Positions 1 to 11,181 are shown, numbered from the stretch's first letter. The stretch is DNA of 15,297 bases from Promethearchaeati archaeon (GCA_013166835.1 JABLTI010000067.1:1-15297), one strand, 5' to 3'. Numbers and translations: made by a program. The notes: generated from the letters alone by a model not told the origin.

Positions 1-1068
1 AACAGGGTCATCTACTTGTGATCGACTACATTCACCTTCACAATGAGCAGTACAAATACGACCACAAACTGAGGGGAAGGGCATTTCTTCACGAATAAGT
101 TCTAATGATTCAGCAAATTTTCCTTCTGAAATAAGATTAACATAACCTTGGACATGAATATCAGCTGGACAACCATCTCTACATGGTGGAATCCCTTGTT
201 TGTCAATGCTATAACATTGAGGAACCGCCTGTGGGAAAGCTATGTTTATAGCTTTAGTAGTTCCTAATCCTTCATCAAATACACTTGTAATAACTGAGGG
301 ACAGGTTTCAACACAATCTCCACAGGAGGTGCATTTGTCTGGATCAACATATCTTGGCTGTTTTAGAATCTCTACTTCAAAATTCCCAACATAACCTGAA
401 ACATTCGTAACCTCAGATTTAGAATAAATTGTAATTTTTGGATGATCTGCTACTTCAGCCATTTTTGGTGTTAGTATACACGCTGAGCAATCTTGTGTTG
501 GGAATGTTTTATCTATTTGAGCCATTTTCCCACCAATCGTGGGTTCTTTTTCAACCAAAATGGTCTCAAATCCAAGTTTTCCTAATGCAAGGGAAGCTGT
601 AATACCAGCAATTCCCCCTCCAACAACCATAGCTTTTGGTGTGCTACCAACTGTATTAGGATCTAAAGGTACGAGTAAAGCTGCTCTATTGACTGCCATT
701 CGGACTAGATCTTTTGCTTTCTTTGTAGCACTATCTTTGTCATCTGTTACCCAACTAACATGTTCTCTGATGTTTGCCATTTCAAATAAGTATTTGTTTA
801 GTCCAGCTGCTTGCACAGTATTCCTGAAAGTTGTTTCGTGCATGTGTGGGCTACATGAAGCAACGATAACACGGTTTAAATTATGTTCAAGAACATCTGC
901 TTGAATACGCATCTGACTTGGTTTTGAACATGTATACTTGAGATTCTCAGCATGAGCTACATTATCAAGTGTCTTTGCATATTCTGTTACTTCTTTACAA
1001 TTAACCGTAGAAGCAATGTTTGTACCACAATCACAAATATATACACCAATTCTTATTTCTTCACTCAT
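1..1068 (-). CDS. hdrA: Large heterodisulfide reductase subunit A with inserted GltD/NfnB-type Fe-S domain (HdrL-like); 3' end runs off the window
   Basis: Manual translation from ATG at 1068 gives 356 codons with no stop: MSEEIRIGVYICDCGTNIA...VASCSPHMHE...MANIREHVSWV...VVGGGIAGITA...LVEKEPTIGGKMAQIDKTFPTQDCSACILTPKM...RYVDPDKCTSCGDCVETCP...AFPQAVP. These are HdrA motifs. It continues PPCRDGCP...GYVNLISEGKF...PFPSVCGRICTAHCEGEC (Fer4_20/GltD-like). AAGGAG lies 9 nt upstream of the start. Confidence 0.93.
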   Translation of the reverse strand, partial: MSEEIRIGVYICDCGTNIASTVNCKEVTEYAKTLDNVAHAENLKYTCSKPSQMRIQADVLEHNLNRVIVASCSPHMHETTFRNTVQAAGLNKYLFEMANIREHVSWVTDDKDSATKKAKDLVRMAVNRAALLVPLDPNTVGSTPKAMVVGGGIAGITASLALGKLGFETILVEKEPTIGGKMAQIDKTFPTQDCSACILTPKMAEVADHPKITIYSKSEVTNVSGYVGNFEVEILKQPRYVDPDKCTSCGDCVETCPSVITSVFDEGLGTTKAINIAFPQAVPQCYSIDKQGIPPCRDGCPADIHVQGYVNLISEGKFAESLELIREEMPFPSVCGRICTAHCEGECSRSQVDDPV

Positions 1069-1077
1069 ATTGGTTTG

Positions 1078-1083
1078 CTCCTT
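1078..1083 (-). promoter_or_regulatory. Shine-Dalgarno site (AAGGAG) of the hdrA-like gene
   Basis: The reverse complement reads AAGGAG-caaaccaat-ATG (9-nt spacer). Confidence 0.6.
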
Positions 1084-1405
1084 GCACCTAAAAGGGTGAT
1101 TGAGAGGTTAGTATTTGATACTTTGTTTAACTTTTACTATACACTGGGAAAATCAAACATTTTATTTTAATCTAGTCTACACTTATAATACAGACCTCTT
1201 TTATAAATTTAGCTTATAATTTCTTTTTATCTTCATTCTTTTTAAAAAAACCATTTTCGAGTCTCTACCCAATTTTGAAGTCTAATAATCTAGCTTGTGG
1301 GGGGGGAATTAATACAAAAATTCATAATAAAGTAATTATACAGTAAAGAAGGAATATCTCAAAAATTAAGTATTACATAATAAAAGATTAGAAAGGCGAA
1401 GTAAA

Positions 1406-2251
1406 ATGTATAGTTATGTTTCATTAAAAACAGAATGTCCCCATTGTGGGAAATCTCTAATGGATAAGAAAAAACTCATAGATCAAATTCCAAGCATTAA
1501 ATTAAAAATTAACTCAGATGATGCAGAAGGTATCATTAATTTTAGTGCTTTCTATGGAAGTTATAATTATTTAACAGATTTTGATATTGAGAAGGATAAA
1601 GAATACCATTTTTCCTGCCCCCACTGTAAAACAGAATTAAGTTCAGATATTACTTGTGATGAATGCTCTGCATCACTTATTCCGCTTAACATTAAGGACG
1701 GAGGAGTCATCAAATTTTGTTCAAGAGCAGGTTGTAAAAAACATAACGTAGTTTTCGAGGATCTCTCATCAATCCATCATTATTTCCAAGAAACCTATGA
1801 TGAGAACATTGTCCACGAGCCCCATACACCAGAAGAAGCTAAAGCTCATAAAGAATTAATTAAAAGTGGTACATTTCTAAGAATTTATTGCCCACACTGC
1901 AAAAAAAGCAATATTGAGAAAGGATCAGCGATCTTTCGGATTATAAATGGGAACGATGAAGCTGGGTATTTGATGCTAAGTCCTTATCTCAACGTTTTCA
2001 CTGCCAAATCTACTGTATATATTCCGGAGGGCGCAGTAATAAACGATATTCAATGTCCTCAATGTAAAACAACTTTACTTTCTGAGGAAACAAAATGTAA
2101 GGATTGTGAAGCCCCTGCAGTAGGTGTTTCTCTTGCTGCTTTAAGAAAACTAATTGATTTCTATTTCTGCTCTAAAAAAGGTTGTCATTGGCATAGCCTG
2201 AGTGAAGAAGATTTACATTATGTTTCATTAGAAGATAGTGATTACTGGTAG
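1406..2251 (+). CDS. Uncharacterised multi-Cys metal-binding (zinc-ribbon-like) protein with an internally duplicated domain; paralog 1
   Basis: 281 aa. Cys at 11/14/71/74/84/87/105/110 (+H113) and again at 162/165/217/220/231/234/255/260 (+H263). Clearly paralogous to 2464..3252. Confidence 0.85.
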   Translation: MYSYVSLKTECPHCGKSLMDKKKLIDQIPSIKLKINSDDAEGIINFSAFYGSYNYLTDFDIEKDKEYHFSCPHCKTELSSDITCDECSASLIPLNIKDGGVIKFCSRAGCKKHNVVFEDLSSIHHYFQETYDENIVHEPHTPEEAKAHKELIKSGTFLRIYCPHCKKSNIEKGSAIFRIINGNDEAGYLMLSPYLNVFTAKSTVYIPEGAVINDIQCPQCKTTLLSEETKCKDCEAPAVGVSLAALRKLIDFYFCSKKGCHWHSLSEEDLHYVSLEDSDYW

Positions 2252-2300
2252 AATAATTCCACAACATTTTCTCTTATTTTCACTTTAGTATTTAAATAAC

Positions 2301-2318
2301 ATTATTTTCGAAAATAAT
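2301..2318. promoter_or_regulatory. Perfect 18-bp palindrome, candidate operator or hairpin
   Basis: ATTATTTTCGAAAATAAT is self-complementary and lies in the intergenic region between the two Cys-rich paralogs. It is AT-rich and its function is inferred. Confidence 0.4.
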
Positions 2319-2463
2319 CAAATAATCTTTAATTTCATTAATAAAAGTTATATAATAACAAAGTCAATATTATAAAAAAAGTTAAGCATACCATACTGAG
2401 ATTTTTCCCGATTTTAATTATGCTTCATTTAAATAACATAACTATGCCTTAGGGGGCTGGTAA

Positions 2464-3252
2464 ATGAATGACTTAATATCATTAACAGTTTGGTGCCCGA
2501 ACTGCAGTAAATCGTTAATGGATAAAGAAAAACTAGTTGATGGAAAACCAAGTATTAGATTAGAAATTTCAGATAGTAAAAAGAAAGGAACAATTCTATT
2601 AAGCTCGTATTATGGGAGCTACAATTTCGATAGTGATTATGAAACCGAAACAGACAAAGAGTACACCTTTAGTTGTCCACAATGTGGAGATGTAATAACT
2701 TCTAATGTGAAATGTGAAGACTGCAAAGCAAAGATGATTCCTTTAAACATAGAAGGAATCGGTATTGTAAAGTTCTGCTCCCGATCAGGATGTAAACATC
2801 ACACTATTGAAGTAGAGGATCTGGAATATCTGGATTATTTCAAAGTTAAAAAAGAAATGCTAGAAAGCGGAACGTATTTGCGAACATTCTGTCCTCATTG
2901 TAGTAAAAGTAATGTGGACGGAAATGTTGTCAAGTTTCTAATCACTAACCAAAAAGGTGAAACGGGTGACTTATTCCTCAGTCCATACCTAAACTTGTTT
3001 ACTAATAAATCTACAATTGACATTCCTGAAGGTGAAATTGTAAAGGATATTAATTGTCCGCAATGTGGGTCTAGCCTAATTATTAAAGGTGCAAATTGTA
3101 AGGAATGCGCTTCACAAATTGTTGGATTAAACGTCGCTGCTGTAACCAGACTAATCGAGTTTCGTTTTTGTGCTAAGAAAGGTTGTCACTGGCATGGATT
3201 AAGTTCAGATGATATGGAATCTGTCTTATTAGAAGATAGTGAAGCATGGTAA
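2464..3252 (+). CDS. Uncharacterised multi-Cys metal-binding (zinc-ribbon-like) protein with an internally duplicated domain; paralog 2
   Basis: 262 aa with 16 Cys in the same spacing as paralog 1 (11/14/71/74/84/87/105/110; 143/146/198/201/212/215/236/241). Shared motifs are KSLMD, PSI, YGSYN, DKEY, FCSRxGC, LSPYLN, KST, IPEG, KKGCHWH and LEDSxxW. Confidence 0.85.
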   Translation: MNDLISLTVWCPNCSKSLMDKEKLVDGKPSIRLEISDSKKKGTILLSSYYGSYNFDSDYETETDKEYTFSCPQCGDVITSNVKCEDCKAKMIPLNIEGIGIVKFCSRSGCKHHTIEVEDLEYLDYFKVKKEMLESGTYLRTFCPHCSKSNVDGNVVKFLITNQKGETGDLFLSPYLNLFTNKSTIDIPEGEIVKDINCPQCGSSLIIKGANCKECASQIVGLNVAAVTRLIEFRFCAKKGCHWHGLSSDDMESVLLEDSEAW

Positions 3253-3294
3253 AAAACTAAGAAATAAAATTTTATAATCTGCGAGGATACCTCT

Positions 3295-3846
3295 ATGGTC
3301 ACAAGTAGTTCGAATAAAACATCTACAAAAGATTTTAAGCTTAACTCCAATGCTAAGCAGAAAATTAGTAAAATCCTAGAAACGTCGAATCATGATCCAA
3401 AGAATCTGATACGGATTCTTCAAGACTTACAAGACGAATTCCATTATTTGCCTGAAAAAATAATTTCTCATATTGCAAAGGAGTTGAAAATATCTGAACA
3501 CCATATATTTGGCGTTGCTACCTTTTATTCTCAATTTAAATTCATTAAACCTGGCAAACATGTAATCAGAGTTTGTATGGGAACAGCTTGCCATGTCCTA
3601 GGTGCACAATCCTTACTTGATAACTTGTCTCGAGATTTAGGAATAAACACTGGTGAGACAACAATAGATGATTTATTTAGCCTTGAAAGTGTATACTGTT
3701 TAGGTTGTTGTGCTTTAGCTCCAGTAATGGTGATTGATGAAGATGTCTATGGTAGTATGACAGCTGCGAAAGTAAATCGAATTTTGCGAAAATACCGCAA
3801 AGAAGCTAAGCCAAAACAAAGCAAAAGTGGAGCCAACAAAAAATGA
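3295..3846 (+). CDS. nuoE: NuoE/HydC(BfuC)-like [2Fe-2S] subunit
   Basis: GVATFYSQF, VCMGTACHV and CLGCCALAPV are NuoE-family [2Fe-2S] motifs. GAGG lies upstream and the stop overlaps the next start (ATGA). Confidence 0.93.
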   Translation: MVTSSSNKTSTKDFKLNSNAKQKISKILETSNHDPKNLIRILQDLQDEFHYLPEKIISHIAKELKISEHHIFGVATFYSQFKFIKPGKHVIRVCMGTACHVLGAQSLLDNLSRDLGINTGETTIDDLFSLESVYCLGCCALAPVMVIDEDVYGSMTAAKVNRILRKYRKEAKPKQSKSGANKK

Positions 3847-5720
3847 GCAATTTCTATTCAATGGTTAAACAAGCCAAAGCTTCTTGGGAAGCTCTACTAA
3901 ACCAAAAGAAACCAGTTATCTATGCTGGGGCAGCATCTTGCGGTCGGGCTGCTGGTATCTTACCAATAATCGAGGAATTAGAAGTTCTTTCCAAGGAAAT
4001 TCCACTAGACATAGTTGAAGTTGGTTGCATTGGTCCTTGCTACCTTGAACCCATTATAGGTATTCAAAAGAAGGATTCTTCCACTATTCTCTATAGCAAC
4101 GTCCAGGTGAGACAAGTACGAGAAATCGTAGAGAATTACCTAAATAAAGGAGATCCGCAAGTAGACAAAGCAATAGGCACTCTATCTGGTAACGGAATTG
4201 AAGGGATCCCATCCTTTTGGGAACATCCCATGATTAAAAATCAAGTACGCATTGTCCTAAAAAATTGTGGAATCATAGATCCAACAAATATCGACCACTA
4301 CTTGGCAATGGACGGATATCTTGGATTAAAAAATGCCCTTGCCATGAGTCCTGAGGAAGTAATCAAAGTAGTCTCTGATGCTGGTTTGCGTGGTAGAGGT
4401 GGTGCAGGATTTCCAACTGGTTTAAAGTGGAAATTTACTCGAGCCGAAAAAGACCAAGATAAGTATATCATCTGCAATGCTGATGAAGGGGATCCCGGAG
4501 CATTCATGAATAGATCACTAATAGAAGGTGATCCACATTCAGTTCTCGAAGGTATGATAATCGGCGCTTATGCTATAGGAGCACAAAAGGGTTACATTTA
4601 CTGTCGAGCAGAATATCCGTTAGCAATTGAACGATTTGAAAAAGCAATTGCTGATATGAGAGAACGGGATCTTCTTGGAGAAAACATTCTGAACAGCAAT
4701 TTTGATTTTGACATTGAAATCAAAAGGGGTGCTGGTGCTTTCGTATGTGGTGAAGAAACTGCCCTGATAGCCTCAGTTATGGGTGATCGTGGAATGCCTA
4801 GACAAAAACCCCCTTATCCTTCGCAAGAAGGGGTCTGGGGAAAACCCACAATCATAAATAATGTAGAAACACTTGGAACTGTCCCAGTTATTCTCAGAAT
4901 GGGGAAGACATGGTATGCCAAATACGGAACTGAACAATCTAAAGGCACAAAGACTTTCTCCCTTGTAGGAAAAATAAAGCGAACTGGATTAATTGAAGTC
5001 CCACTTGGCACTACATTACGAGAAGTAATTTTCGAAATTGGAGGAGGAGTTGCAGAGGAAAAGAATTTCAAAGCAATACAAGTTGGTGGACCTTCTGGTG
5101 GAACTATACCTTCAGCATTTATAGATGAACCATTAGACTATGAGGAGCTCACAAAATTAGGAGCAATTATGGGTTCAGGGGGTATTGTTGTAATTGATGA
5201 TGAAACCTGTGTTGTTGATCTTGCCAAGTACTTTTTAAAATTCACTGAAGCAGAATCTTGCGGAAAATGTGTTCCATGCCGAATTGGCAACAAACAACTA
5301 CTGATCCTCTTGGAGAAAATAACGGAAGGTAAAGGAACGATAGAAGATTTCGAACTTCTCGAAGAGTTTGCCCATACCGTTTCAGAAGGATCATTATGTG
5401 GATTAGGGAAAACAGCCCCAAACCCAGTAATTACTACACTGATGTATTTTAGAGATGAATATCGATCTCACGTGTTAGACAAACGATGTCCAGCGAAAGT
5501 CTGTAAGGAATTATTTGTTTATCAAGTGGATGAGGAAACATGCATTGGTTGCGAAATTTGTAGAAAACGATGCCCAACTGGTGCGGTTACGGGTGAGAAG
5601 AAGAAACCTCACGTAATTCATATTGAGGATTGCATAAAATGTGATGTTTGCTTCACGAACTGCCCAGCAAAAGCAATAAGAAAAATTGACAAGGTGGATG
5701 TGGAAATTGTTAGTAATTAA
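3843..5720 (+). CDS. nuoF: NuoF/HydB(BfuB)-like FMN/NAD(P)H-binding subunit with N-terminal thioredoxin-like domain and C-terminal 2x[4Fe-4S]
   Basis: GLRGRGGAGFPTG, CNADEGDPGAFMNR, GAGAFVCGEETAL, GGPSGG, ESCGKCVPCR, SLCGLG, H-x5-CPAKVC, CIGCEICRKRCP and CIKCDVCFTNCP. The N-terminus has SCG...GCIGPC. Confidence 0.95.
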   Translation: MSNFYSMVKQAKASWEALLNQKKPVIYAGAASCGRAAGILPIIEELEVLSKEIPLDIVEVGCIGPCYLEPIIGIQKKDSSTILYSNVQVRQVREIVENYLNKGDPQVDKAIGTLSGNGIEGIPSFWEHPMIKNQVRIVLKNCGIIDPTNIDHYLAMDGYLGLKNALAMSPEEVIKVVSDAGLRGRGGAGFPTGLKWKFTRAEKDQDKYIICNADEGDPGAFMNRSLIEGDPHSVLEGMIIGAYAIGAQKGYIYCRAEYPLAIERFEKAIADMRERDLLGENILNSNFDFDIEIKRGAGAFVCGEETALIASVMGDRGMPRQKPPYPSQEGVWGKPTIINNVETLGTVPVILRMGKTWYAKYGTEQSKGTKTFSLVGKIKRTGLIEVPLGTTLREVIFEIGGGVAEEKNFKAIQVGGPSGGTIPSAFIDEPLDYEELTKLGAIMGSGGIVVIDDETCVVDLAKYFLKFTEAESCGKCVPCRIGNKQLLILLEKITEGKGTIEDFELLEEFAHTVSEGSLCGLGKTAPNPVITTLMYFRDEYRSHVLDKRCPAKVCKELFVYQVDEETCIGCEICRKRCPTGAVTGEKKKPHVIHIEDCIKCDVCFTNCPAKAIRKIDKVDVEIVSN

Positions 5721-7275
5721 CGGAAGACAAGTACGCTACATAAAAGGTAAAACGATTCTTGAGACTGCCCGAGATAACAGTATTCATATTCCAAGTTTAT
5801 GTGCCCACGAACGACTGCCCTCTTTTGGAGCATGCAGATTATGCATGGTAAAAGTTAATGGAACTTCTGGATTCATGAATGCCTGTACAACACCAGTCAA
5901 GGATGATATGATCATAACTACTGACAGTTTAGAAATAAAGAAACTAAGAAGAGCTATTTTTGAACTGATTCTCTCAGAGCATCCAAGTAGCTGTATGGTT
6001 TGCGATCAAGCTGCTCATTGTGATAAGCTTAATTCCGGAGTCATGAAAGCTGGAGTGATAACTGGTTGCCATACTTGTCCAAATAGAGAGATGTGTGAAG
6101 TACGAATAGTTGCTGATGAATTAAACTTCAAAAGCATTCGATTCCCAATGTTTTACAAAGAACTCCCAATAGAGAGAACTGATCCATTTTTTGATCGAGA
6201 CTATAATTTATGCATTCATTGTGGAAGGTGTGTCAGAGTCTGTCAAGATGTAGAAGGAGCAAATATCCTAGTTTTCACAAAACGAGGACATGATACAAAG
6301 GTTGGAACATCTTTTGAGAAACCTCATATAGACACCGATTGCAAATTCTGTGGTCAATGTATAGATGTTTGTCCAACAGGAGCTTTATCTGCTCGAGGTC
6401 AGAAATGGTATGATTGTCCTGATGATCAATTCAGAACTACTTGTATGCTTTGTAACAAAGGTTGCAGATTTGAAGTCGACGTAAAGTGGGATCGAATCGT
6501 CGGGATGCGTCCAGATCCTGACTATAAAACATTGAAAACCGGGATATGTGTAAAAGGAAGATTCTGTATACCAGTATTATTCAACAATGTTGAACGTTTA
6601 AAATTCCCAAGGATGCTTAAAAACTTCAAATTATATCCAACAAATTGGGATGAAGTATCTCTCTATATTGCAGAAATGTTTGAGAAATATCCTCCATCAA
6701 AGATTGCAATTTATTTGTCTAATTTCTTAACCAACGAAGCAGAATATGTTTTCTTGAAATTTGCAGAACAACTTGAGATTACCACTATTTTGAGGAAACC
6801 CGAAGATTTAGAACAAATCACAAAGAAAGGTATTACAGTCCTGTATACAACTGAAGGATTACCAAATTTGAAGAAATACAAATCCTTGAAGCATATAATT
6901 TTCCAAGAGGTCTTTCCATCAGAGGGTTATGACCTTGCAGAAGTTATCCTACCCGTTGCTACATTTACTGAGCAATTTGGAACATATACAACAAAACGAG
7001 GACCAATGCCCATACAAAAAATAGTAAAAGCACCAGACCTTGCGCTAGAGGATTGGAAAATAGTCTGTAAGATAGCGAAAGAGCTTGATTTAACAGGATT
7101 CGATTTTATAGACACAGATGAGATAGATCAAGAAATTGGAAGAATGAAATATCAAACAGAGATAAAACCAGTGGATGAATACTATCTGAAGTATCGGGGA
7201 ACGCCAATCGCAGAGAAAGTGCCTGATTTTGACCTTCTTCTGAAGGCTAGAAAAGATAGGGAGAAACCGTGGTGA
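5698..7275 (+). CDS. NuoG/HydA-N/FdhA-like multi-Fe-S subunit (BfuA-like) with a vestigial molybdopterin-oxidoreductase domain
   Basis: [2Fe-2S] motif (IPSLC...GACRLC...NACTTP), His-[4Fe-4S] motif (EHPSSCMVC), 2x[4Fe-4S] (CIHCGRCVRVC, CKFCGQCIDVCP), Mo-family [4Fe-4S] (TTCMLCNKGC...CVKGRF) and remnants AEVILPVATFTE/DWKIV. No H-cluster motifs. The start is uncertain: TTG 5686, ATG 5698 or TTG 5707 (after AGGTGG). Confidence 0.85.
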   Translation: MWKLLVINGRQVRYIKGKTILETARDNSIHIPSLCAHERLPSFGACRLCMVKVNGTSGFMNACTTPVKDDMIITTDSLEIKKLRRAIFELILSEHPSSCMVCDQAAHCDKLNSGVMKAGVITGCHTCPNREMCEVRIVADELNFKSIRFPMFYKELPIERTDPFFDRDYNLCIHCGRCVRVCQDVEGANILVFTKRGHDTKVGTSFEKPHIDTDCKFCGQCIDVCPTGALSARGQKWYDCPDDQFRTTCMLCNKGCRFEVDVKWDRIVGMRPDPDYKTLKTGICVKGRFCIPVLFNNVERLKFPRMLKNFKLYPTNWDEVSLYIAEMFEKYPPSKIAIYLSNFLTNEAEYVFLKFAEQLEITTILRKPEDLEQITKKGITVLYTTEGLPNLKKYKSLKHIIFQEVFPSEGYDLAEVILPVATFTEQFGTYTTKRGPMPIQKIVKAPDLALEDWKIVCKIAKELDLTGFDFIDTDEIDQEIGRMKYQTEIKPVDEYYLKYRGTPIAEKVPDFDLLLKARKDREKPW

Positions 7276-7280
7276 AAAAG

Positions 7281-8141
7281 ATGTACGAAATCGTAGATAA
7301 AAAAGAAGAAGCACCAAATGTTCATCGAATTATCATTCGAGAACCAATGACTGCCGAGAAAGCACAACCCGGGCAATTTGCCATACTCATGCCTGATGAG
7401 AAAGGTGAAAGAATCCCTATGTCTATAGCTGATACTAACAAAGACACCTTCACAATCTTCCTCTTAGAATTAGGAATCTCCACAGCTAAAATCGCAACGT
7501 TAAACAAAGGTGACAAACTCTATTGTGTCGTTGGACCACTTGGGAAGCCATCAATAATAGAGAAGTATGGTCGAGTGATACTTGGTGGAGGGTGTTATGG
7601 AGTAGGTGCAATCTACCCGATAGCAAAAGCTTTGAAGGCAGCTGGAAATCACGTCACAACAATCATTGAAGCGAGAAACAAATACCTGCTTTACTTCGAA
7701 GAAGAATTAGCATCTGTTTCAGACGAGGTACATATAGCCACATCTGATGGATCAGTGGGAACAAAAGGACATGTCCAAGATGTTCTCGTGCAGCTAATAA
7801 GAGATGGAGAACGATATGATCATGCAAAATTCATCGGATGCACGTACATGATGTATAATTGCTCGAATATAACTGCACCATACAAGATACCAACAATGGT
7901 GTGTTTAAACACAATCATGCTAGATGGAACTGGTATGTGCGGTTGCTGCCGTGTTTCTGTTGATGGGAAAACGAAATTTGCTTGTGTTGATGGACCTGAA
8001 TTTGATGGTCATAAAGTGGACTGGGAAGAATTGATGAAGCGAAAGAAGTCCTACCAAATGGAAGAGATGATTTCCTATCAGACAGCTCCACACGTCTGTC
8101 GTGCGCTTGTAGAAACTATTCTAGGTGAGAACATTGAGTGA
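7281..8141 (+). CDS. nfnA: NfnA/SudB (sulfide/dihydroorotate dehydrogenase-like FAD/NAD-binding [2Fe-2S] subunit)
   Basis: PGQF, GERIPMSIAD, GPLGKP and DGTGMCGCCRV...FACVDGPEFDGHKVDW. ATG at 7281 is preceded by GGTGA (5-nt spacer). The ORF track starts at GTG 7269. Confidence 0.92.
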   Translation: MYEIVDKKEEAPNVHRIIIREPMTAEKAQPGQFAILMPDEKGERIPMSIADTNKDTFTIFLLELGISTAKIATLNKGDKLYCVVGPLGKPSIIEKYGRVILGGGCYGVGAIYPIAKALKAAGNHVTTIIEARNKYLLYFEEELASVSDEVHIATSDGSVGTKGHVQDVLVQLIRDGERYDHAKFIGCTYMMYNCSNITAPYKIPTMVCLNTIMLDGTGMCGCCRVSVDGKTKFACVDGPEFDGHKVDWEELMKRKKSYQMEEMISYQTAPHVCRALVETILGENIE

Positions 8142-9750
8142 AAAGAAGAAACCTCACACTAAAGAAAAGAAACCTGTTAAGCCAAAGATAGAGGAGAAGA
8201 AAGTAAAGAAAGCTCCCACTAAGACTTCTACAAAAACTCCCAAAAAAACACCGGTTAAAAAAGCTACCACGGAAAAGAAGCAAACACCTCCTAGACCACC
8301 TCGAGTAAAAATGAGTGAACAACCTCCAGAAGTCAGAATCAAGAATTTCGATGAAGTACCTTACGGTTTAACTCCTGAGCAAGCAATAGCGGAAGCTAAA
8401 CGTTGTCTTCAATGTGGTAAACCAAAATGTGTAGCTGGTTGCCCTGTTGAAGTTCAAATCCCTGAGTTTATTGGATTAATTGCTGAAGGAAAATTCGTAG
8501 AAGCTGCTTGTAAAATTAAAGAAACAAATGTTCTCCCAGCTGTTTGTGGTCGGGTCTGTCCCCAAGAAACACAATGTGAAGAAGTCTGTATTCTTGGAAG
8601 AAGACATGATCCAATTGCAATTGGTTGGTTGGAGAAATTCTGCGCAGATTATGAACGACTAGGTGGACACATCAAACTTCCAAAGAAGCAGAAAGATAAT
8701 GGTAAGAAAGTTGCAATAGTAGGCTCTGGACCCGCTGGTTTAACAGTGGCTGGAGACCTAACACTCCTAGGGTATTCTGTAACAATTTTCGAAGCCTTCC
8801 ACAAAGGTGGAGGAGTATTAGTCTATGGAATTCCAGAATTTCGATTACCAAAAGAAATCGTTGATATTGAAATAAACTACCTAGAAAGACTTGGTGTAGA
8901 AGTCAAGTATAATCATGTAATAGGTAGGTGTAAATCAATCGACGAGTTGTTCTCAAAAGATGCCTATCATGCTGTGTTCATAGCTGTAGGAGCTGGCTTG
9001 CCCCGATTCATGAATATGCCCGGAGAAAATCTCAATGGGGTCTATTCAGCTAATGAATACCTCACACGATCAAATCTCATGAAAGCTTATCTGTTCCCTG
9101 ATTACAATACTCCGTTGATTCATGGTCGCAGTGTAACTGTGGTGGGCGGAGGAAATGTAGCTATGGATTGTGCAAGAACAGCCATGCGACTGGGTTCAGC
9201 AAAGGTGACTTTGGTTTATCGGCGAGCTAGAGAGCAGATGCCTGCAAGAAATGAAGAAATTCATCATGCAGAAGAAGAAGGAATCATCTTCAAATTGCTT
9301 TCAAACCCAGTGGAAATATTTGGTGACGAAGAAGGTCGGGCGACCAAGATTAAATGTCAAAGATATGAACTAGGAGAACCCGATGATTCCGGCAGAAGAA
9401 GACCAATCCCAATTGAAAACGATTACTTCGAATATGATACAGACATTGTTATCATCGCAATCGGAAACAATTCAAATCCCTTAATTGCAGCCACTACTCC
9501 AGATATTGAAATAAATAAATGGGGAAACATCGTCGTTGATAGCCTTGGAAGAACTAGTAAAAAATTCGTTTATGCAGCTGGTGACATCGTTACAGGTGCA
9601 GCAACAGTCATCTCTGCAATGGGTGGAGCAAGACAAGCCGCTATCGGTATTCATTACGATTTAATGGGTGAGATAGAACCAGATATCCCCACTGCTTGCG
9701 AAATGCCTGATGAGTGGTTAGATGAAGAAAAAGACGAACCAGTTACTTAA
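8134..9750 (+). CDS. nfnB: NfnB/SudA (GltD-like NADPH-dependent FAD/[4Fe-4S] subunit) with Lys-rich N-terminal extension
   Basis: EAKRCLQC, CVAGCP, VCGRVCPQETQCE, GSGPAG, YGIPEFRLPK, GGGNVAMDCAR, YRR and AGDIVTGAATVISAMG. It directly follows nfnA. The likely start is TTG 8134 after AGGTGA; the track gives GTG 8125. Confidence 0.92.
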   Translation: MSEKKKPHTKEKKPVKPKIEEKKVKKAPTKTSTKTPKKTPVKKATTEKKQTPPRPPRVKMSEQPPEVRIKNFDEVPYGLTPEQAIAEAKRCLQCGKPKCVAGCPVEVQIPEFIGLIAEGKFVEAACKIKETNVLPAVCGRVCPQETQCEEVCILGRRHDPIAIGWLEKFCADYERLGGHIKLPKKQKDNGKKVAIVGSGPAGLTVAGDLTLLGYSVTIFEAFHKGGGVLVYGIPEFRLPKEIVDIEINYLERLGVEVKYNHVIGRCKSIDELFSKDAYHAVFIAVGAGLPRFMNMPGENLNGVYSANEYLTRSNLMKAYLFPDYNTPLIHGRSVTVVGGGNVAMDCARTAMRLGSAKVTLVYRRAREQMPARNEEIHHAEEEGIIFKLLSNPVEIFGDEEGRATKIKCQRYELGEPDDSGRRRPIPIENDYFEYDTDIVIIAIGNNSNPLIAATTPDIEINKWGNIVVDSLGRTSKKFVYAAGDIVTGAATVISAMGGARQAAIGIHYDLMGEIEPDIPTACEMPDEWLDEEKDEPVT

Positions 9751-9803
9751 AAACGAGTCATAAGAGAAACTCTTATGACGTTTCATTTCTTTTTATTTTA
9801 TTT
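9751..9803 (+). terminator. Stem-loop plus T-rich tract ending the redox operon
   Basis: GTCATAAGAG-AAA-CTCTTATGAC (9757-9779) is a perfect 10-bp stem, extendable by AAAC/GTTT. It is followed by TTTCATTTCTTTTTATTTTATTT and starts right after the nfnB stop. Confidence 0.75.
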
Positions 9804-9814
9804 GAGGAATTAAC

Positions 9815-10204
9815 ATGCTTGGCTCCGCAACTCTAGATGCTATGTTGTGGTTTTATTTTGTAAATGCAATTCTATTAATTGTTCATGAAATAGATTCAGC
9901 TTACTGGAAAGAATGGGAACTATTCAAGATTCCTGGAGGAATAACTAGCTTTCTAATTATTCATTTTCCATTAATAGGGGCAATCTTGTTTGGATTGGCA
10001 GCTATTACACAATGGTACGTTGTAGGATTAGTCTTTTCTTTCATTTTGTGTGTTGGCGGACTATTTGCTTTTACGATTCACACATATTTTCTCAAGAAGG
10101 GAAAAGAGGAATTTAACTCTCCAATATCAATTGCAATCCTAATAGCTATACTTGTTGTATCAGTAACCCAACTAGCACTAACTTTTCTAGTTATATTTAT
10201 TTAA
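9815..10204 (+). CDS. Small four-TM membrane protein (resembles DUF6713/HXXEE-like family)
   Basis: 129 aa with four hydrophobic segments and the motif HEIDSAYWKEWELF. GAGGA lies upstream. The family assignment is from memory and was not searched. Confidence 0.7.
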   Translation: MLGSATLDAMLWFYFVNAILLIVHEIDSAYWKEWELFKIPGGITSFLIIHFPLIGAILFGLAAITQWYVVGLVFSFILCVGGLFAFTIHTYFLKKGKEEFNSPISIAILIAILVVSVTQLALTFLVIFI

Positions 10205-10281
10205 TGTACTGAGAAAAATAATAAATACAAAGAATCAAAGTAGTTGCAGCTAAAAGTAATAAAGTAAAGGAATTTCTAACT

Positions 10282-11181
10282 ATGCGTAAAGTAGCTATAG
10301 TATCAGATGGTACAGCTGATATTCCCAAAGATTTAATTGAAAAATATAATATCCATATTATTCCTATTTTTGTTGTTTTTGAAACGGAGAAATTTTCTAT
10401 ATACGGTGATTATGGCGATATATCAAAAGAGGAGTTTTATGAACGATTAAGAACCTGTGACGAATTACCCACAACTGGTATTGCATCTCAAAGTTATTTT
10501 ATTTCAGCTTTTGAAGCAGCAGCAAAAGAAGCTAAATCTGTGATTGGCATCTTTGTCTCAGAGAAATTATCAGCTCATTTTGTGGAAGCAAAAAGGATAG
10601 CTGCAACATTAGAGGATATTGATATAACTGTTGTTGATGCACGAGCAGCAGCTATACCGTTGGGATTAACAGCCTTGGAAGCTGCAATTATGGCTCATGA
10701 AGGGAAATCAAAAGAAGAAATCCTTACTCGATTGGAAGAAGAACTGATACCTCAGAACAAAATGGTTGTAGTATTGGATACTCTCCAGAATCTTTATCGA
10801 TCGGGAAGAATTGGCAAAATTCAAAAGTTTTTTGGGCAATCATTAAAAATCAAACCAATCATTTGCTATAATAAAGATGGATCTGTTGGGAGTAGAGGGA
10901 AGATTAGAGGAGATAGAGAGGAAGTTATTAAGAGATTCAAATTCTTGGCTCCCTTTGTAGTAAAGCACGCAATAACTGATAATATATTTATTTGGCATTC
11001 AGAGTATAAAGAACCTGCAAAAGAGCTTTTAGAAATTATGGAACAACACAATGATAAAGGAAAGAAAATAAGAATTGTCAATGCAGGACCAGTGGTTGGT
11101 ACTCATATTGGAGAAAAAACTATTGGGATAGTTTATATTGGTCCTTATAATGAAAATTGGATGAATATGAAAGAAGCATAA
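10282..11181 (+). CDS. degV: DegV family (FakB-like) fatty-acid-binding protein
   Basis: VAIVSDGTADIP, LPTT, VSEKLS, ITVVD, LYRSGRIG, LKIKPII and GPVVGTHIG. The length of 299 aa is typical of DegV. Confidence 0.9.
   Translation: MRKVAIVSDGTADIPKDLIEKYNIHIIPIFVVFETEKFSIYGDYGDISKEEFYERLRTCDELPTTGIASQSYFISAFEAAAKEAKSVIGIFVSEKLSAHFVEAKRIAATLEDIDITVVDARAAAIPLGLTALEAAIMAHEGKSKEEILTRLEEELIPQNKMVVVLDTLQNLYRSGRIGKIQKFFGQSLKIKPIICYNKDGSVGSRGKIRGDREEVIKRFKFLAPFVVKHAITDNIFIWHSEYKEPAKELLEIMEQHNDKGKKIRIVNAGPVVGTHIGEKTIGIVYIGPYNENWMNMKEA

What the first reader, a model, noticed from the sequence alone, without database searches (positions are those of the whole stretch)
1..9750. Three flavin-based electron-bifurcation families in one locus (HdrL-like HdrA, HydABC/Bfu core, NfnAB)
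Seen in the sequence: an hdrA-like gene divergent from an operon of nuoE-nuoF-nuoG-like-nfnA-nfnB with overlapping or near-abutting stops and starts and one terminal hairpin. Established: HdrA, HydABC/Bfu and NfnAB are three of the four known bifurcating classes (EtfAB is the fourth). Sporomusa StnABC and Thermococcus NfnABC fuse a GltD/NfnB domain into the BfuA subunit. Here BfuA has no such fusion and no catalytic site, while a complete, separate NfnAB follows it. Inference: a five-subunit Bfu-Nfn assembly, or a co-regulated redox hub, linking NADH, NADPH, ferredoxin and, through HdrL, a disulfide. It might carry out two bifurcation steps.
Basis: partly seen in the sequence, partly recalled or inferred. 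Interest (0 to 1): 0.85.

Follow-up and report, generated by a model that had tools for sequence, protein, structure and literature searches.

The report
Nfn module wired to Bfu core
An Asgard-archaeal operon joins two different electron-bifurcating enzymes (a Bfu core and a complete NfnAB) through a catalytically dead connector subunit. The same gene set, in places fused into one gene, recurs across many anaerobic archaea and bacteria, which points to a widespread enzyme complex not described in the papers searched.

Summary
bfuC-bfuB-bfuA-nfnA-nfnB (3295-9750, + strand) have overlapping or abutting junctions and end in a hairpin. An HdrA/NfnB-fusion gene (HdrL-like) starts at 1068 on the opposite strand and runs off the window.

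The five-subunit idea is strongly supported:
- In the 80 closest BfuA loci, nfnA sits directly downstream in 66 of the 71 loci that can be judged. These span Asgard, Thermoplasmatota, Bathyarchaeia and at least ten bacterial groups.
- BfuA and NfnA are a single polypeptide in a large protein family.
- 62 of those 66 loci, and the window, lack the formate-dehydrogenase active-site Cys/Sec-His; the window's BfuA has that segment deleted.
- NfnA proteins linked to Bfu form their own subfamily, with two invariant cysteines in the NAD-binding motifs.
- The Cys-ribbon module is fused elsewhere to BfuC-type proteins and to an NfnB, so it probably belongs to the system.

The HdrL link is not conserved (0 of 80 loci). 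No paper I could search describes this complex; one notes the gene neighbourhood in passing.

The parts
1..1068 (-). 5' part (356 codons) of an HdrL-type gene: HdrA N-terminal and thioredoxin-reductase-like FAD domains, then the start of an inserted NfnB/GltD-like module. The gene runs off the window.
   Evidence: NF040770 HdrA2 1e-124 over aa 6-303; PF14691 over aa 294-352. 5odc_A HdrA 392 bits over aa 3-296; aa 293-356 match the GltD-type Fe-S domains of 9n5u_A, 8oh5_C and 4ylf_B. Full-length relatives are 1152-1158 aa, from Heimdall/Asgard MAGs. P0242 aa 254-705 aligns to the window NfnB at 34% identity. Not conserved next to the operon: 0 of 80 loci.
1069..1405 (.). 337-bp AT-rich divergent intergenic region between hdrL and the first Cys-ribbon gene. 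Presumed to hold the promoters (inferred only).
   Evidence: Sequence read. The sigma-70 scan is not informative for an archaeon (51 sites found against 57.5 expected).
1406..2251 (+). Cys-ribbon protein 1 (281 aa). It holds two repeats of a ~130-aa module, each with three CxxC knuckles and a CxxxGCxxH motif. The metal (Zn or Fe) is unknown.
   Evidence: Only weak Zn-ribbon Pfam hits. Module alignment and HMM. No PDB relative at E<=1. 286 representatives at E<=1e-3. 14 of the 29 longer hits scanned carry a NuoE/BfuC-type PF01257 domain N-terminal to the module. The module is fused to an NfnB paralogue in L015.
2464..3252 (+). Cys-ribbon protein 2 (262 aa), a paralogue of protein 1. It ends 42 bp upstream of bfuC.
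   Evidence: 47% identical to protein 1 over the full length. A GGGGG Shine-Dalgarno-like stretch precedes the ATG. Homologues sit beside bfu/nfn genes in L013, L014, L015 and L058.
3295..3846 (+). bfuC (NuoE/HydC-like, 183 aa), with a [2Fe-2S] cluster C1.
   Evidence: PF01257 1.5e-49. Best PDB matches: HydC 8a6t_C, NfnC 9n5u_C, NiFe-Bfu C 7t2r_C. Cys94/99 and Cys135/139.
3843..5720 (+). bfuB (NuoF/HydB-like, 625 aa): N-terminal thioredoxin-like domain, FMN/NADH domain, B1 cluster, His/Cys hinge site, and a C-terminal 2x[4Fe-4S] ferredoxin domain.
   Evidence: PF01512 2.1e-49 and PF10589 9.5e-31. Full-length matches to bifurcating BfuB chains: 7t2r_B 739 bits, 8oh5_B 734, 9n5u_B 717, 7q4v_B 695. 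Motif positions: H543-x5-C549-x4-C554; CxxCxxCxxxCP at 567-578 and 597-608; C33, C62, C66.
5698..7275 (+). bfuA (525 aa; alternative TTG start at 5686). An Fe-S wire: [2Fe-2S], a His-ligated [4Fe-4S], an extra CxxCx5C triad, 2x[4Fe-4S], and a MopB-type [4Fe-4S]. It is followed by a truncated molybdopterin-fold remnant with no active site.
   Evidence: Pfam domains. Motif positions. The best PDB hit, FdsA 6tg9_A, aligns only to aa 5-357 and aa 399-481 of the query, skipping about 300 residues of the enzyme. The Sec/Cys-His segment is deleted. The family is conserved, with invariant Cys residues.
7269..8141 (+). nfnA (290 aa; alternative ATG start at 7281). PyrK-like, with a-FAD and a [2Fe-2S] cluster. 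It belongs to a Bfu-linked subfamily that has Cys109 and Cys191 in the two NAD-binding motifs.
   Evidence: NF004862 354 bits (cut-off 220). 5jca_S 262 bits and 4ylf_A 248 bits. D219/C224/C227/C239. C109 and C191 are present in 67 of 67 linked copies, against G and P in 4 of 4 unlinked paralogues.
8125..9750 (+). nfnB (541 aa from GTG 8125, or 479 aa from ATG 8311). GltD-like, with 2x[4Fe-4S], b-FAD and an NADPH domain. It has a lineage-specific Lys/Thr/Pro-rich N-terminal extension.
   Evidence: TIGR01316 582 bits (cut-off 471.75). 4ylf_B 522 bits, 5jca_L 472 bits, EFRLP kept. The extension is 21 K, 10 T and 10 P in 66 aa and is absent from relatives.
9757..9805 (+). Operon-end hairpin (9757-9779, 10-bp stem) followed by a T-rich tract.

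Best explanation
The + strand genes 1406-9750 are one operon of a Heimdallarchaeota-like archaeon. I read it as encoding a soluble multi-subunit NAD(P)H/ferredoxin oxidoreductase.

Proposed architecture:
- A complete NfnAB module (the NADP(H) site on NfnB's b-FAD) is physically attached to a bifurcating BfuBC core (FMN, NAD(H) and ferredoxin sites).
- The link is BfuA, a formate-dehydrogenase/NuoG-like subunit that has lost its molybdopterin active site and now serves only as an iron-sulfur wire.
- Two Cys-ribbon proteins probably bind near BfuC and/or NfnB.

Shown here:
- the domain content and cofactor motifs of every subunit;
- loss of the catalytic segment in BfuA;
- conservation of bfuC-bfuB-bfuA-nfnA-nfnB across both domains of life;
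- natural BfuA-NfnA, BfuC-ribbon and ribbon-NfnB fusion proteins;
- a Bfu-specific NfnA subfamily.

Inferred:
- By homology with StnABC/NfnABC, where the GltD-like domain's two [4Fe-4S] clusters feed the NuoG-like wire, NADPH electrons leave NfnB through its [4Fe-4S] pair into BfuA.
- They then reach the BfuBC flavobicluster, which exchanges them with NAD+ and ferredoxin.
- The net chemistry is therefore ferredoxin-dependent NADPH:NAD+ transhydrogenation.
- NfnA gives the NfnB flavin a second exit whose use, and hence the stoichiometry, is open.

HdrL is a neighbour, not a part.
For: 1. Synteny. The best 80 of 551 BfuA relatives were fetched using BfuA alone as the query.
   - nfnA+nfnB lie directly downstream on the same strand in 61 loci.
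   - L060 has bfuA-nfnA as one ORF, followed by nfnB. That makes 62.
   - 4 more loci have nfnA and then the contig ends.
   - In 9 loci the contig ends in or at bfuA.
   - 5 loci lack nfnAB (L005, L029, L034, L070, L079).
   - Total: 66 of 71 informative loci.
   - By record title these include Hodarchaeum, Thor- and Promethearchaeota, Thermoplasmatota, Bathyarchaeia, Desulfobacteraceae, Aminicenantes, Anaerolineae, Dehalococcoidia including D. mccartyi, Nitrospirota, Planctomycetota, Bacteroidota, Cloacimonadota, Coatesbacteria, Stahlbacteria and WOR-3.
2. Gene fusion. P0121 (846 aa) is BfuA+NfnA in one frame. All 120 clusters listed carry NfnA-type PF10418 together with BfuA-type domains. 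By my reading of that table, 110 of them also carry the N-terminal PF13510. Source names include Syntrophales, Syntrophobacteraceae, Desulfonatronum, Desulfobulbus, Fidelibacterota, Kiritimatiellae, Hydrogenedentota and Phycisphaerales.
3. No other third substrate.
   - The FDH active-site Sec/Cys-His dipeptide occurs in only 6 of 80 loci (L034 and L079 with Sec; L041, L046, L070, L078 with Cys). L030 has Cys-Tyr.
   - The window and 7 loci have the whole segment deleted.
   - No gene other than the five is shared widely. The next most frequent is an AlaDh_PNT gene in 20 loci.
4. The BfuB is of the bifurcating type, and it has the hinge His that the T. sibiricus paper calls Bfu-specific.
5. 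NfnA copies linked to bfuA share C109 and C191 in 67 of 67 cases. The 4 unlinked paralogues have G and P, as do T. maritima and P. furiosus NfnA. All 53 fusion proteins aligned in A3 also keep both Cys.
6. BfuA and NfnA trees recover the same main groups.
7. Tight junctions within the operon and a single terminator-like hairpin at its end.
Against:
- NfnAB here is complete and very like stand-alone enzymes, so it could work on its own.
- 5 of 71 informative relatives lack nfnAB.
- 4 nfnAB-linked relatives keep a Cys at the FDH active-site position (L030, L041, L046, L078). In those organisms formate, not NADPH, could be the third substrate, with Nfn as a neighbour.
- 8 loci carry an [FeFe]-hydrogenase-like gene after nfnB.
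- The contact point (NfnB clusters versus NfnA flavin) is inferred from homology and from the order of the fused domains, not observed.
- Supplementary tables of PMC9304861, which may already list such clusters, could not be opened.
Confidence: 0.68

Rival explanations
1. Two independent enzymes share one transcript. A free, ordinary NfnAB transhydrogenase is co-expressed with a BfuABC module because both use NADH and ferredoxin. BfuA's real partner is encoded elsewhere.
For: - NfnAB is complete and canonical in NfnB.
- The literature that noticed the neighbourhood treats the two as separate: PMC6349859 passages, and the Asgard figure legend in bioRxiv 10.1101/726976, which lists 'FdhA-HydBC' and 'NfnAB' apart.
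- 5 of 71 informative relatives have bfuCBA without nfnAB.
Against: - BfuA and NfnA are covalently fused in a large family.
- The NfnA copies next to bfuA are a distinct subfamily, 67 of 67 against 0 of 4.
- Adjacency is kept in 66 of 71 informative loci across both domains, with gene trees recovering the same groups.
- No candidate partner gene is conserved.
Confidence: 0.12
2. The complex exists, but BfuA's wire contacts NfnA's a-FAD, whose NAD(H) site has been closed by Cys109/Cys191. NfnAB's high-potential branch then drains into BfuABC, which acts as its NAD+ reductase. NfnB still reduces free ferredoxin.
For: - The fusion joins the BfuA C-terminus to the NfnA N-terminus.
- Both NAD-binding motifs of NfnA are changed in every linked copy: GGC[YF]G in place of GGGVG, and GCT in place of GPx.
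Against: - The glycine-rich loop is otherwise kept, so NAD(H) binding may persist.
- In the solved Stn structure the link between the GltD-like domain and the NuoG-like wire runs through the two GltD [4Fe-4S] clusters (PMC10482914 passages).
Confidence: 0.15
3. BfuABC works with the neighbouring HdrL, as BamGHI does with an HdrA-type subunit. The locus would then couple NADH and ferredoxin to a disulfide or another HdrL substrate, which is the 'redox hub' reading.
For: - hdrL lies 337 bp from the first operon gene, in divergent orientation.
- There is a precedent for Bfu plus an HdrA-type module in Bam-Bfu (PMC9304861 section 5).
- Close relatives of both proteins are each reported with a longest contig of 1,551,900 bp (P0003, P0247). 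That is only compatible with one genome.
Against: - The HdrA part has 0 matches within 10 kb of bfuA in 80 related loci, including the closest one, L001.
- No hdrBC or mvhD is in the window.
- The gene is on the opposite strand.
Confidence: 0.05
4. The bfuCBA genes encode a confurcating NAD/ferredoxin-dependent formate dehydrogenase ('FdhA-HydBC'), as such genes are labelled for Asgard archaea.
For: - BfuA's best solved relatives are FdsA-type formate dehydrogenases (6tg9_A and 9wxb_B).
- One clade of relatives does keep Sec/Cys-His.
- The label appears in bioRxiv 10.1101/726976.
Against: - The window's BfuA is 525 aa and lacks the whole segment that carries the Mo ligand and the catalytic His. 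About 300 residues of FdsA have no counterpart.
- The Thor- and Promethearchaeota relatives (767-770 aa) have 'GSDF' at that place.
Confidence: 0.02

Closest known systems
StnABC of Sporomusa ovata / NfnABC (Nfn-Bfu) of Thermococcus sibiricus and Caldicellulosiruptor saccharolyticus (PDB 8oh5, 9n5u, 9bov)
   Same: - BfuBC-type core with NAD(H) and ferredoxin sites. The window's BfuB and BfuC match these chains over their full length (734/717 bits and 123-145 bits).
- A catalytically dead FdhF/NuoG-like wire.
- A GltD/NfnB-type FAD module as the likely NADPH entry.
   Different: - There, the GltD-like domain is inserted into the BfuA polypeptide and no NfnA homologue exists. PMC10482914 says 'there is no NfnA homologue in Stn'.
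- Here BfuA has no such domain. A separate, canonical NfnB and an NfnA follow it.
- The NfnB flavin therefore keeps the partner that makes it bifurcating in NfnAB.
NfnAB / NfnSL of Thermotoga maritima and Pyrococcus furiosus (PDB 4ylf, 5jca)
   Same: - nfnA-nfnB gene order.
- NfnB 522 and 472 bits; NfnA 248 and 262 bits.
- All cluster ligands and the EFRLP arginine are kept.
   Different: - The known enzyme is a free heterodimer with 'no HydBC homologue' (PMC10482914).
- Here it is embedded in a bfu operon, and elsewhere it is fused to BfuA.
- NfnA carries Cys109 and Cys191 where the solved enzymes have Gly and Pro.
Type 2/3 Bfu enzymes with add-on subunits (NiFe-HydABCSL and WorABCSL of Acetomicrobium mobile; PDB 7t2r)
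   Same: - A BfuA without its own catalytic site receives electrons from extra subunits (PMC9304861 section 5).
- The best PDB match of the window's BfuB is 7t2r_B.
   Different: The add-on here is NfnAB, itself a flavin-based bifurcating enzyme. It is not among the add-ons named in the main text of PMC9304861 (hydrogenase, WOR, FDH, CODH, POR, Mbh, Nuo, Bam, rubrerythrin).
Bam-Bfu (BamBCDEFGHI) benzoyl-CoA reductase
   Same: It is proposed to hold two bifurcating modules in one complex: BfuABC plus an HdrA-type subunit (PMC9304861 section 5).
   Different: The second module there is HdrA-type and the substrate is benzoyl-CoA. Here the second module is NfnAB, and no substrate enzyme is encoded.
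fdhA-nuoE-nuoF genes 'in close proximity' to nfn genes in Margulisbacteria and Saganbacteria (PMC6349859)
   Same: The same gene neighbourhood, noted in passing.
   Different: There it is read as a real FDH (a possible FDH-Ehr complex) plus a separate Nfn. The passages I saw report no fusion, no active-site check and no proposal of a complex.

Membership tests
Bfu (HydABC-type) bifurcating core | BfuB: NuoF-like FMN/NADH domain with the B1 [4Fe-4S] cluster | tested here: met
   PF01512 2.1e-49 and PF10589 9.5e-31. GRGGAGFPTG at 184-193; CGKCVPC at 473-479; SLCGLG at 517-522.
Bfu (HydABC-type) bifurcating core | BfuB C-terminal ferredoxin domain with two CxxCxxCxxxCP motifs (B3, B4), absent from non-bifurcating homologues (PMC9304861 section 5) | tested here: met
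   Motifs at 567-578 and 597-608. Aligned to the end of 7t2r_B and 8oh5_B.
Bfu (HydABC-type) bifurcating core | Hinge His/Cys site (B2). The His is said to be conserved in Bfu B subunits and absent from non-bifurcating ones (PMC12018979 passage). | tested here: met
   H543-x5-C549-x4-C554, with the same spacing as in 7t2r_B and 8oh5_B. The fourth ligand was not mapped.
Bfu (HydABC-type) bifurcating core | BfuB N-terminal thioredoxin-like domain (B5 site) | tested here: inconclusive
   The domain aligns from residue 26-28 with 8oh5_B and 9n5u_B. Only three Cys are present (C33, C62, C66), with Gly at the fourth position. Cluster or zinc cannot be told apart; both occur in solved members.
Bfu (HydABC-type) bifurcating core | BfuC with the C1 [2Fe-2S] cluster; BfuA N-terminal Fe-S wire | tested here: met
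   BfuC: C94/C99/C135/C139. BfuA: four-Cys [2Fe-2S], HxxxCxxCxxxxxC, two CxxCxxCxxxC motifs, and a MopB-type cluster.
Bfu (HydABC-type) bifurcating core | Tightly coupled three-substrate activity (NAD, ferredoxin, third substrate) | not testable with these tools
   Needs enzyme assays.
NfnAB (NfnSL) | NfnB: GltD-like, with two [4Fe-4S] clusters, FAD and NADPH domains | tested here: met
   TIGR01316 582 bits against a cut-off of 471.75. 4ylf_B 522 bits over aa 61-519.
NfnAB (NfnSL) | Arginine contacting N5 of the bifurcating FAD (the EFRLP motif of the solved enzymes) | tested here: met
   EFRLP at 238-242. The sequence is present, but its geometry is not testable. The same Arg exists, too far from N5, in non-bifurcating Stn/NfnABC.
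NfnAB (NfnSL) | NfnA: PyrK-like, with FAD and an Asp+3Cys [2Fe-2S]; nfnA immediately upstream of nfnB | tested here: met
   NF004862 354 bits against a cut-off of 220. D219, C224, C227, C239. Gene order as. The pattern itself is described in PMC6405883.
NfnAB (NfnSL) | Canonical NAD(H)-binding motifs of NfnA (GGGVG loop and GP motif, as in 4ylf_A and 5jca_S) | tested here: not met
   The window has GGGCYG (C109) and GCT (C191). So do 67 of 67 Bfu-linked copies, against 0 of 4 unlinked paralogues. The consequence for NAD binding is unknown.
Stn / NfnABC (type 1 Nfn-Bfu) | GltD/NfnB-like domain inserted in the BfuA polypeptide; no NfnA subunit | tested here: not met
   BfuA (525 aa) has no Pyr_redox or Fer4_20 domain. 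A separate NfnA and NfnB are encoded.
NAD-dependent formate dehydrogenase (FdsABG / Fdh-Bfu) | Molybdopterin domain with the Sec/Cys-His active-site dipeptide | tested here: not met
   The segment is deleted in the window. In the alignment it is present only in L034, L079 (Sec), L041, L046, L070 and L078 (Cys). FdsA 6tg9_A aligns only to query aa 5-357 and 399-481.
HdrA / HdrL | HdrA N-terminal cluster domain plus thioredoxin-reductase-like FAD domain | tested here: met
   aa 3-296 against 5odc_A, 392 bits.
HdrA / HdrL | Complete NfnB-like module inserted in the ferredoxin domain ('HdrL'; the name is recalled. The insertion is described for ANME-1 HdrA9-11 in bioRxiv 10.1101/2021.09.25.461819.) | tested here: inconclusive
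   Only its first 64 residues (aa 293-356) lie in the window. A 92%-identical relative, P0242 (1157 aa), has the whole module at aa 254-705.

The most novel reading that the evidence does not exclude
The complex is a tandem (two-stage) bifurcating machine.
- NfnB's b-FAD splits NADPH electrons between NfnA (to NAD+) and its [4Fe-4S] branch.
- That low-potential branch does not reduce free ferredoxin. It feeds BfuA and is bifurcated a second time at the BfuBC flavobicluster.
- The overall reaction would be 4 NADPH + 3 NAD+ + Fd(ox) = 4 NADP+ + 3 NADH + Fd(red), instead of the 2:1:1 stoichiometry of NfnAB and Stn.
- Using the physiological potentials quoted in PMC9304861 (-380, -280 and -500 mV), simple arithmetic lets such an enzyme push an acceptor to about -680 mV. 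In reverse, it could make NADPH with half as much reduced ferredoxin per NADPH.
- The Cys-ribbon modules are fused elsewhere to the BfuC C-terminus and to an NfnB N-terminus, so they would sit at or near the ferredoxin-docking regions.
Probability: 0.25. Interest if true: 0.9.

Novelty: new variant of a known kind. Interest (0 to 1): 0.74.

Why it matters
- Bfu and Nfn are presented in the field as two alternative, mutually exclusive solutions for ferredoxin-dependent transhydrogenation (PMC7483475, PMC10482914 and PMC12018979 passages). A conserved operon and a large fusion family that join them into one unit do not fit that picture. They provide a natural system in which a flavin-only and a flavin/iron-sulfur bifurcation site may be wired in series.
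- The stoichiometry of such an enzyme would change redox and energy budgets in models of energy-limited anaerobes: Asgard archaea, Thermoplasmatota, Aminicenantes, Dehalococcoidia and syntrophic Desulfobacterota.
- It corrects an annotation. The 'FdhA' of 'FdhA-HydBC' in these Asgard clusters lacks the formate-dehydrogenase active site. It should therefore not be counted as formate metabolism in scenarios of syntrophy at the origin of eukaryotes.
- It also gives a first functional context to an uncharacterised Cys-ribbon family.

Tried and rejected
- Complex prediction (BfuA alignment A1 with NfnA alignment A2) was not available. The interface question stays open.
- Structure prediction on the natural BfuA-NfnA fusion (alignment A3) was accepted but the job failed.
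Its Supplementary Table 1 may already list bfu clusters with nfnAB.
I could not check through accession numbers whether HdrL and BfuA relatives are adjacent in the 1.55-Mb Heimdall contig.
I saw only their search listings.

Leads that came to nothing:
- HdrL synteny: 0 of 80 loci for the HdrA part. The 8 hits are cross-matches of its GltD-like end to NfnB.
- Window genes downstream of the operon (DUF6713, DegV, and the 482-, 455- and 185-aa ORFs): 0 of 80 loci at E<1e-10.
- NfnB: no column separates the 59 linked copies from the 5 unlinked ones.
- The K/T/P-rich NfnB extension is not shared by relatives.
- No tRNA and no Rfam family in the window.
- Two regex attempts to extract the NfnA loop were too strict and gave mostly 'NA'. 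They were replaced by a sliding comparison.
- The sigma-70 promoter scan is uninformative.
- Residue co-variation between BfuA and NfnA was considered but not run, because about 180 sequence pairs are too few.

Literature searches for a described Bfu+NfnAB complex found none. They cover only the open-access and bioRxiv library.

Full report
WHAT IS IN THE WINDOW

The ORF list and the Pfam and NCBIfam scans give this map.

On the - strand:
- 1-1068: the first 356 codons of an HdrA-like gene that runs off the window.

On the + strand:
- 1406-2251 and 2464-3252: two paralogous Cys-rich 'zinc-ribbon' genes, 47% identical.
- 3295-3846: bfuC (NuoE-like).
- 3843-5720: bfuB (NuoF-like, 625 aa).
- 5698-7275: bfuA (NuoG/FdhA-like, 525 aa).
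- 7269-8141: nfnA.
- 8125-9750: nfnB.
- 9757-9779: a 10-bp hairpin followed by a T-rich tract. It folds at -14.8 kcal/mol, and 3 of 200 shuffles fold as well.
- Downstream: DUF6713 and DegV genes.

Again on the - strand, further downstream: three unrelated ORFs.

The five redox genes overlap or abut (4, 23, 7 and 17 nt with the starts listed). The closest named relatives of BfuA and of the HdrA-like protein come from Candidatus Heimdallarchaeota and 'Asgard group' MAGs, at 76-86% identity.

The 'HdrL' identity also rests on only a fragment. Residues 3-296 match HdrA of Methanothermococcus (5odc_A, 392 bits). Residues 293-356 switch to a GltD/NfnB-type Fe-S domain. A 92%-identical full-length relative of 1157 aa carries a whole NfnB-like module at residues 254-705.

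THE SUBUNITS

BfuB is of the bifurcating kind.
- Its best solved relatives, aligned over the full length, are NiFe-Bfu BfuB (7t2r_B, 739 bits), S. ovata StnB (8oh5_B, 734), T. sibiricus NfnB (9n5u_B, 717) and A. woodii HydB.
- It has the two C-terminal CxxCxxCxxxCP motifs, the hinge H543/C549/C554 site and an N-terminal thioredoxin-like domain.
- The T. sibiricus paper says that His is conserved in Bfu B subunits and absent from non-bifurcating homologues (passages).

BfuA keeps every cluster motif of the wire, but its molybdopterin part is a stump.
- The best solved relative, FdsA 6tg9_A, aligns only with residues 5-357 and 399-481.
- That skips about 300 residues of the enzyme.

NfnB is 522 bits to T. 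maritima NfnB and clears the TIGR01316 cut-off. NfnA is 262 bits to P. furiosus NfnS and clears the NF004862 cut-off.

IS THE GENE ORDER CONSERVED?

I aligned 16 BfuA-like proteins (A1) and scanned one genome per species with that alignment.
- 551 stretches encoded a relative, and the best 80 loci were kept.
- The query held no Nfn sequence.

tblastn of the window's proteins against the loci, followed by a count, gave:
- nfnA and nfnB directly downstream of bfuA on the same strand in 61 loci;
- L060, where bfuA and nfnA are one ORF followed by nfnB;
- nfnA followed by the contig end in 4 loci;
- the contig ending in or at bfuA in 9 loci;
- no nfnAB in 5 loci (L005, L029, L034, L070, L079).

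That is 66 of 71 informative loci. The record titles span:
- Archaea: Hodarchaeum, Thor- and Promethearchaeota, Thermoplasmatota and Bathyarchaeia.
- Bacteria: Desulfobacteraceae, Aminicenantes, Anaerolineae, Dehalococcoidia (including a D. mccartyi MAG), Nitrospirota, Planctomycetota, Bacteroidota, Cloacimonadota, Coatesbacteria, Stahlbacteria and WOR-3.

In a Desulfobacteraceae variant the order is bfuC-bfuA-nfnA-nfnB-bfuB, so the bfuA-nfnA junction is still kept.

Apart from the five genes, nothing is widely shared.
- The next most frequent neighbours are an AlaDh_PNT gene (20 loci) and other lineage-specific genes.
- An [FeFe]-hydrogenase-like gene follows nfnB in 8 loci.

FastTree trees of BfuA (N-terminal 355 residues) and of NfnA recover the same main groups. 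Both are midpoint-rooted and no support values were examined.

GENE FUSIONS

L060 encodes an 846-residue protein that is BfuA followed by NfnA. A database search with its junction-plus-NfnA region listed 120 clusters.
- All 120 carry the NfnA-type PF10418 together with BfuA-type domains.
- 110 also have the N-terminal PF13510 and are 817-865 aa long.
- The other ten look like N-terminally cut fragments. This is my reading of the table.
- Source names include Syntrophales, Syntrophobacteraceae, Desulfonatronum, Desulfobulbus, Fidelibacterota, Kiritimatiellae, Hydrogenedentota and Phycisphaerales.

In an alignment of 53 of these proteins, all wire cysteines and all NfnA ligands are invariant. 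A fusion this common is strong evidence that BfuA and NfnA work in one complex.

NO CATALYTIC SITE IN BFUA

Two relatives (L034, L079) have an in-frame TGA followed by more than 540 open codons, which marks them as selenocysteine formate dehydrogenases. I aligned all BfuA proteins on that column.
- Sec-His occurs in those two.
- Cys-His occurs in L041, L046, L070 and L078.
- Cys-Tyr occurs in L030.
- L074 has a Cys-Pro in an unconserved context.
- Every other sequence has unrelated residues.
- The window, L001, L007 and the 544-aa Desulfobacteraceae forms have the segment deleted.

Of the 66 nfnA-linked loci, only L030, L041, L046 and L078 keep a Cys there. The Thor- and Promethearchaeota proteins (767-770 aa) read 'GSDF' at that place. 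A figure legend of the MK-D1 preprint lists 'putative confurcating formate dehydrogenase (FdhA-HydBC)' and NfnAB as separate Asgard features. For this cluster type the FDH label is not tenable.

A BFU-SPECIFIC NFNA

I compared the 67 nfnA copies next to bfuA (window included) with the 4 unlinked paralogues present in the same loci.
- Seven columns are at least 93% conserved in the linked set and differ in all four paralogues.
- Two of them are cysteines. C109 turns the glycine loop GGGVG into GGC[YF]G. C191 turns GPxxMM into GCTxMM.
- Both are present in 67 of 67 linked copies and in 0 of 4 unlinked ones.
- T. maritima and P. furiosus NfnA have Gly and Pro at these positions (alignments).
- From general knowledge of the ferredoxin-reductase fold, these are the two nucleotide-binding motifs of NfnA.

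I cannot say whether NAD(H) still binds, or whether the two thiols form a redox pair. NfnB shows no such signature.

THE TWO MISSED GENES

Each ribbon protein is two copies of a ~130-residue module with three CxxC knuckles and a CxxxGCxxH motif.
- They have no solved relative and only uncharacterised Atlas clusters.
- An HMM of the module finds it beside bfu or nfn genes in L014, L015 and L058; a tblastn match adds L013.
- In L015 it lies in the same reading frame as an NfnB paralogue.
- An exhaustive search found 286 representatives at E<=1e-3.
- I scanned 29 of the longer or offset hits. In 14 of them a NuoE/BfuC-type PF01257 domain lies immediately N-terminal to the module. One of these also has a receiver domain.

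[quoted passage not shown] A module hanging on the BfuC C-terminus would therefore sit near that site. I conclude that the ribbon proteins probably belong to the system. Their role and their metal are unknown.

HDRL

The HdrA part of the fragment has no match in any of the 80 loci. Relatives of HdrL and of BfuA are each reported with a longest contig of 1,551,900 bp, which is only compatible with one genome. I could not fetch that contig. The hub reading that includes HdrL therefore rests on this window alone.

MECHANISM

Shown: the parts, their motifs, their linkage and their fusions.

Inferred from homology:
- In solved StnABC the GltD-like domain hands NADPH electrons through its two [4Fe-4S] clusters to the NuoG-like wire and on to the bifurcating core.
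- There the flavin no longer bifurcates, and no NfnA exists (PMC10482914 passages).

The present system looks like that enzyme taken apart, with NfnA added back.
- My preferred reading is that NfnB docks on BfuA through its cluster domain. NADP(H) would then be the third substrate of the Bfu core.
- NfnA would be tethered to the BfuA C-terminus, as in the fusions.
- If NfnA's branch is active, the complex bifurcates twice. Using the potentials quoted in PMC9304861, the balance 4 NADPH + 3 NAD+ + Fd could reach about -680 mV. That figure is my arithmetic.
- If NfnA's NAD site is closed, the alternative wiring through a-FAD (the second rival explanation) applies.

IS IT KNOWN?

Section 5 of PMC9304861, which I read in full, classifies Bfu enzymes by their third-substrate module. 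It does not name an NfnAB add-on.

From passages only:
- The Nfn review PMC6405883 lists four Nfn patterns and never mentions Nuo-like partners.
- PMC6085437 does not either.
- PMC10482914 states that Nfn has no HydBC homologue and Stn has no NfnA homologue.
- PMC6349859 notes nfn genes 'in close proximity' to fdhA-nuoE-nuoF in Margulisbacteria and Saganbacteria, but treats them as separate enzymes.

Eight full-text searches found no description of such a complex. Subscription-only papers were not covered.

VERDICT

The central interpretation, a five-subunit Bfu-Nfn assembly, is strongly supported by comparative evidence. The HdrL part is not supported, and the double-bifurcation idea stays open. 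This is a new variant of a known kind. It is widespread, and it can be tested directly in cultured organisms.

Noticed in passing
Elsewhere their ~130-aa module is fused to the C-terminus of NuoE/BfuC-type proteins (14 of 29 longer hits scanned) and, in L015, to an NfnB paralogue.
   Followed up: yes
window 7269-8141 (NfnA residues 109 and 191): Two cysteines replace the Gly and Pro of the two NAD-binding motifs in all 67 Bfu-linked NfnA copies and in 53 of 53 fusion proteins. They are absent from the 4 unlinked paralogues and from the solved NfnA chains. Their function is unknown: a closed NAD site, a thiol pair, or something else.
   Followed up: partly
window 6067-6096 (BfuA residues 124-133): A CxxCx5C triad lies between the His-ligated cluster and the ferredoxin-like domain. 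It is conserved in 81 of 81 BfuA sequences and has no counterpart in the FdsA 6tg9_A alignment. It may bind a further metal centre.
   Followed up: partly
window 8125-8310 (NfnB residues 1-62): A Lys/Thr/Pro-rich low-complexity extension (21 K, 10 T and 10 P in the first 66 residues) lies upstream of the conserved NfnB core. The frame stays open for 62 codons in AT-rich DNA. Relatives lack it, although Aminicenantes-type NfnB has a different, conserved ~45-aa extension. The true start (GTG 8125 or ATG 8311) is undecided.
   Followed up: partly
window 9815-11181 (+); L078 6913-7407 (-): DUF6713 and DegV genes follow the operon. A DegV-family fragment also lies just upstream of the D. mccartyi cluster. 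This may be coincidence.
   Followed up: no
window 11293-12741 (-): A 482-aa protein with hydrophobic stretches near the N-terminus and again just upstream of the C-terminal MarR-type winged-helix domain, judged by eye. This could be a membrane-anchored transcription regulator. Only the HTH domain has a family match.
   Followed up: no
window 12973-14340 and 14493-15050 (-): A 455-aa protein with an N-terminal hydrophobic segment and what look by eye like internal repeats, and a 185-aa Cys-containing membrane protein. Neither has a Pfam or NCBIfam hit.
   Followed up: no
L046 8541-9758 and L066 8512-9744: A GltD/NfnB-like stretch (40-42% identical to the window's NfnB) sits between bfuB and bfuA, in addition to the downstream nfnAB. 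BfuB may be fused to a second GltD-like module there.
   Followed up: no
L009 142-1200; protein P0476: In the Desulfobacteraceae variant, BfuC carries an N-terminal response-regulator receiver domain. P0476 combines a receiver domain, a NuoE-like domain and the ribbon module. This hints at phosphorylation control.
   Followed up: no
L062 15454-16821 and 7 further loci; L052 2759-4012 and 19 further loci: An [FeFe]-hydrogenase-like gene (Fe_hyd_lg_C plus Fer4), together with a DRTGG-domain gene, follows nfnB in 8 loci. An alanine-dehydrogenase/PNT-family gene precedes bfuC in 20 mostly Aminicenantes-type loci.
   Followed up: partly
L078 12788-13282: In the D. mccartyi MAG a 164-aa ORF with no Pfam match lies between the Cys-type bfuA and nfnA.
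   Followed up: no
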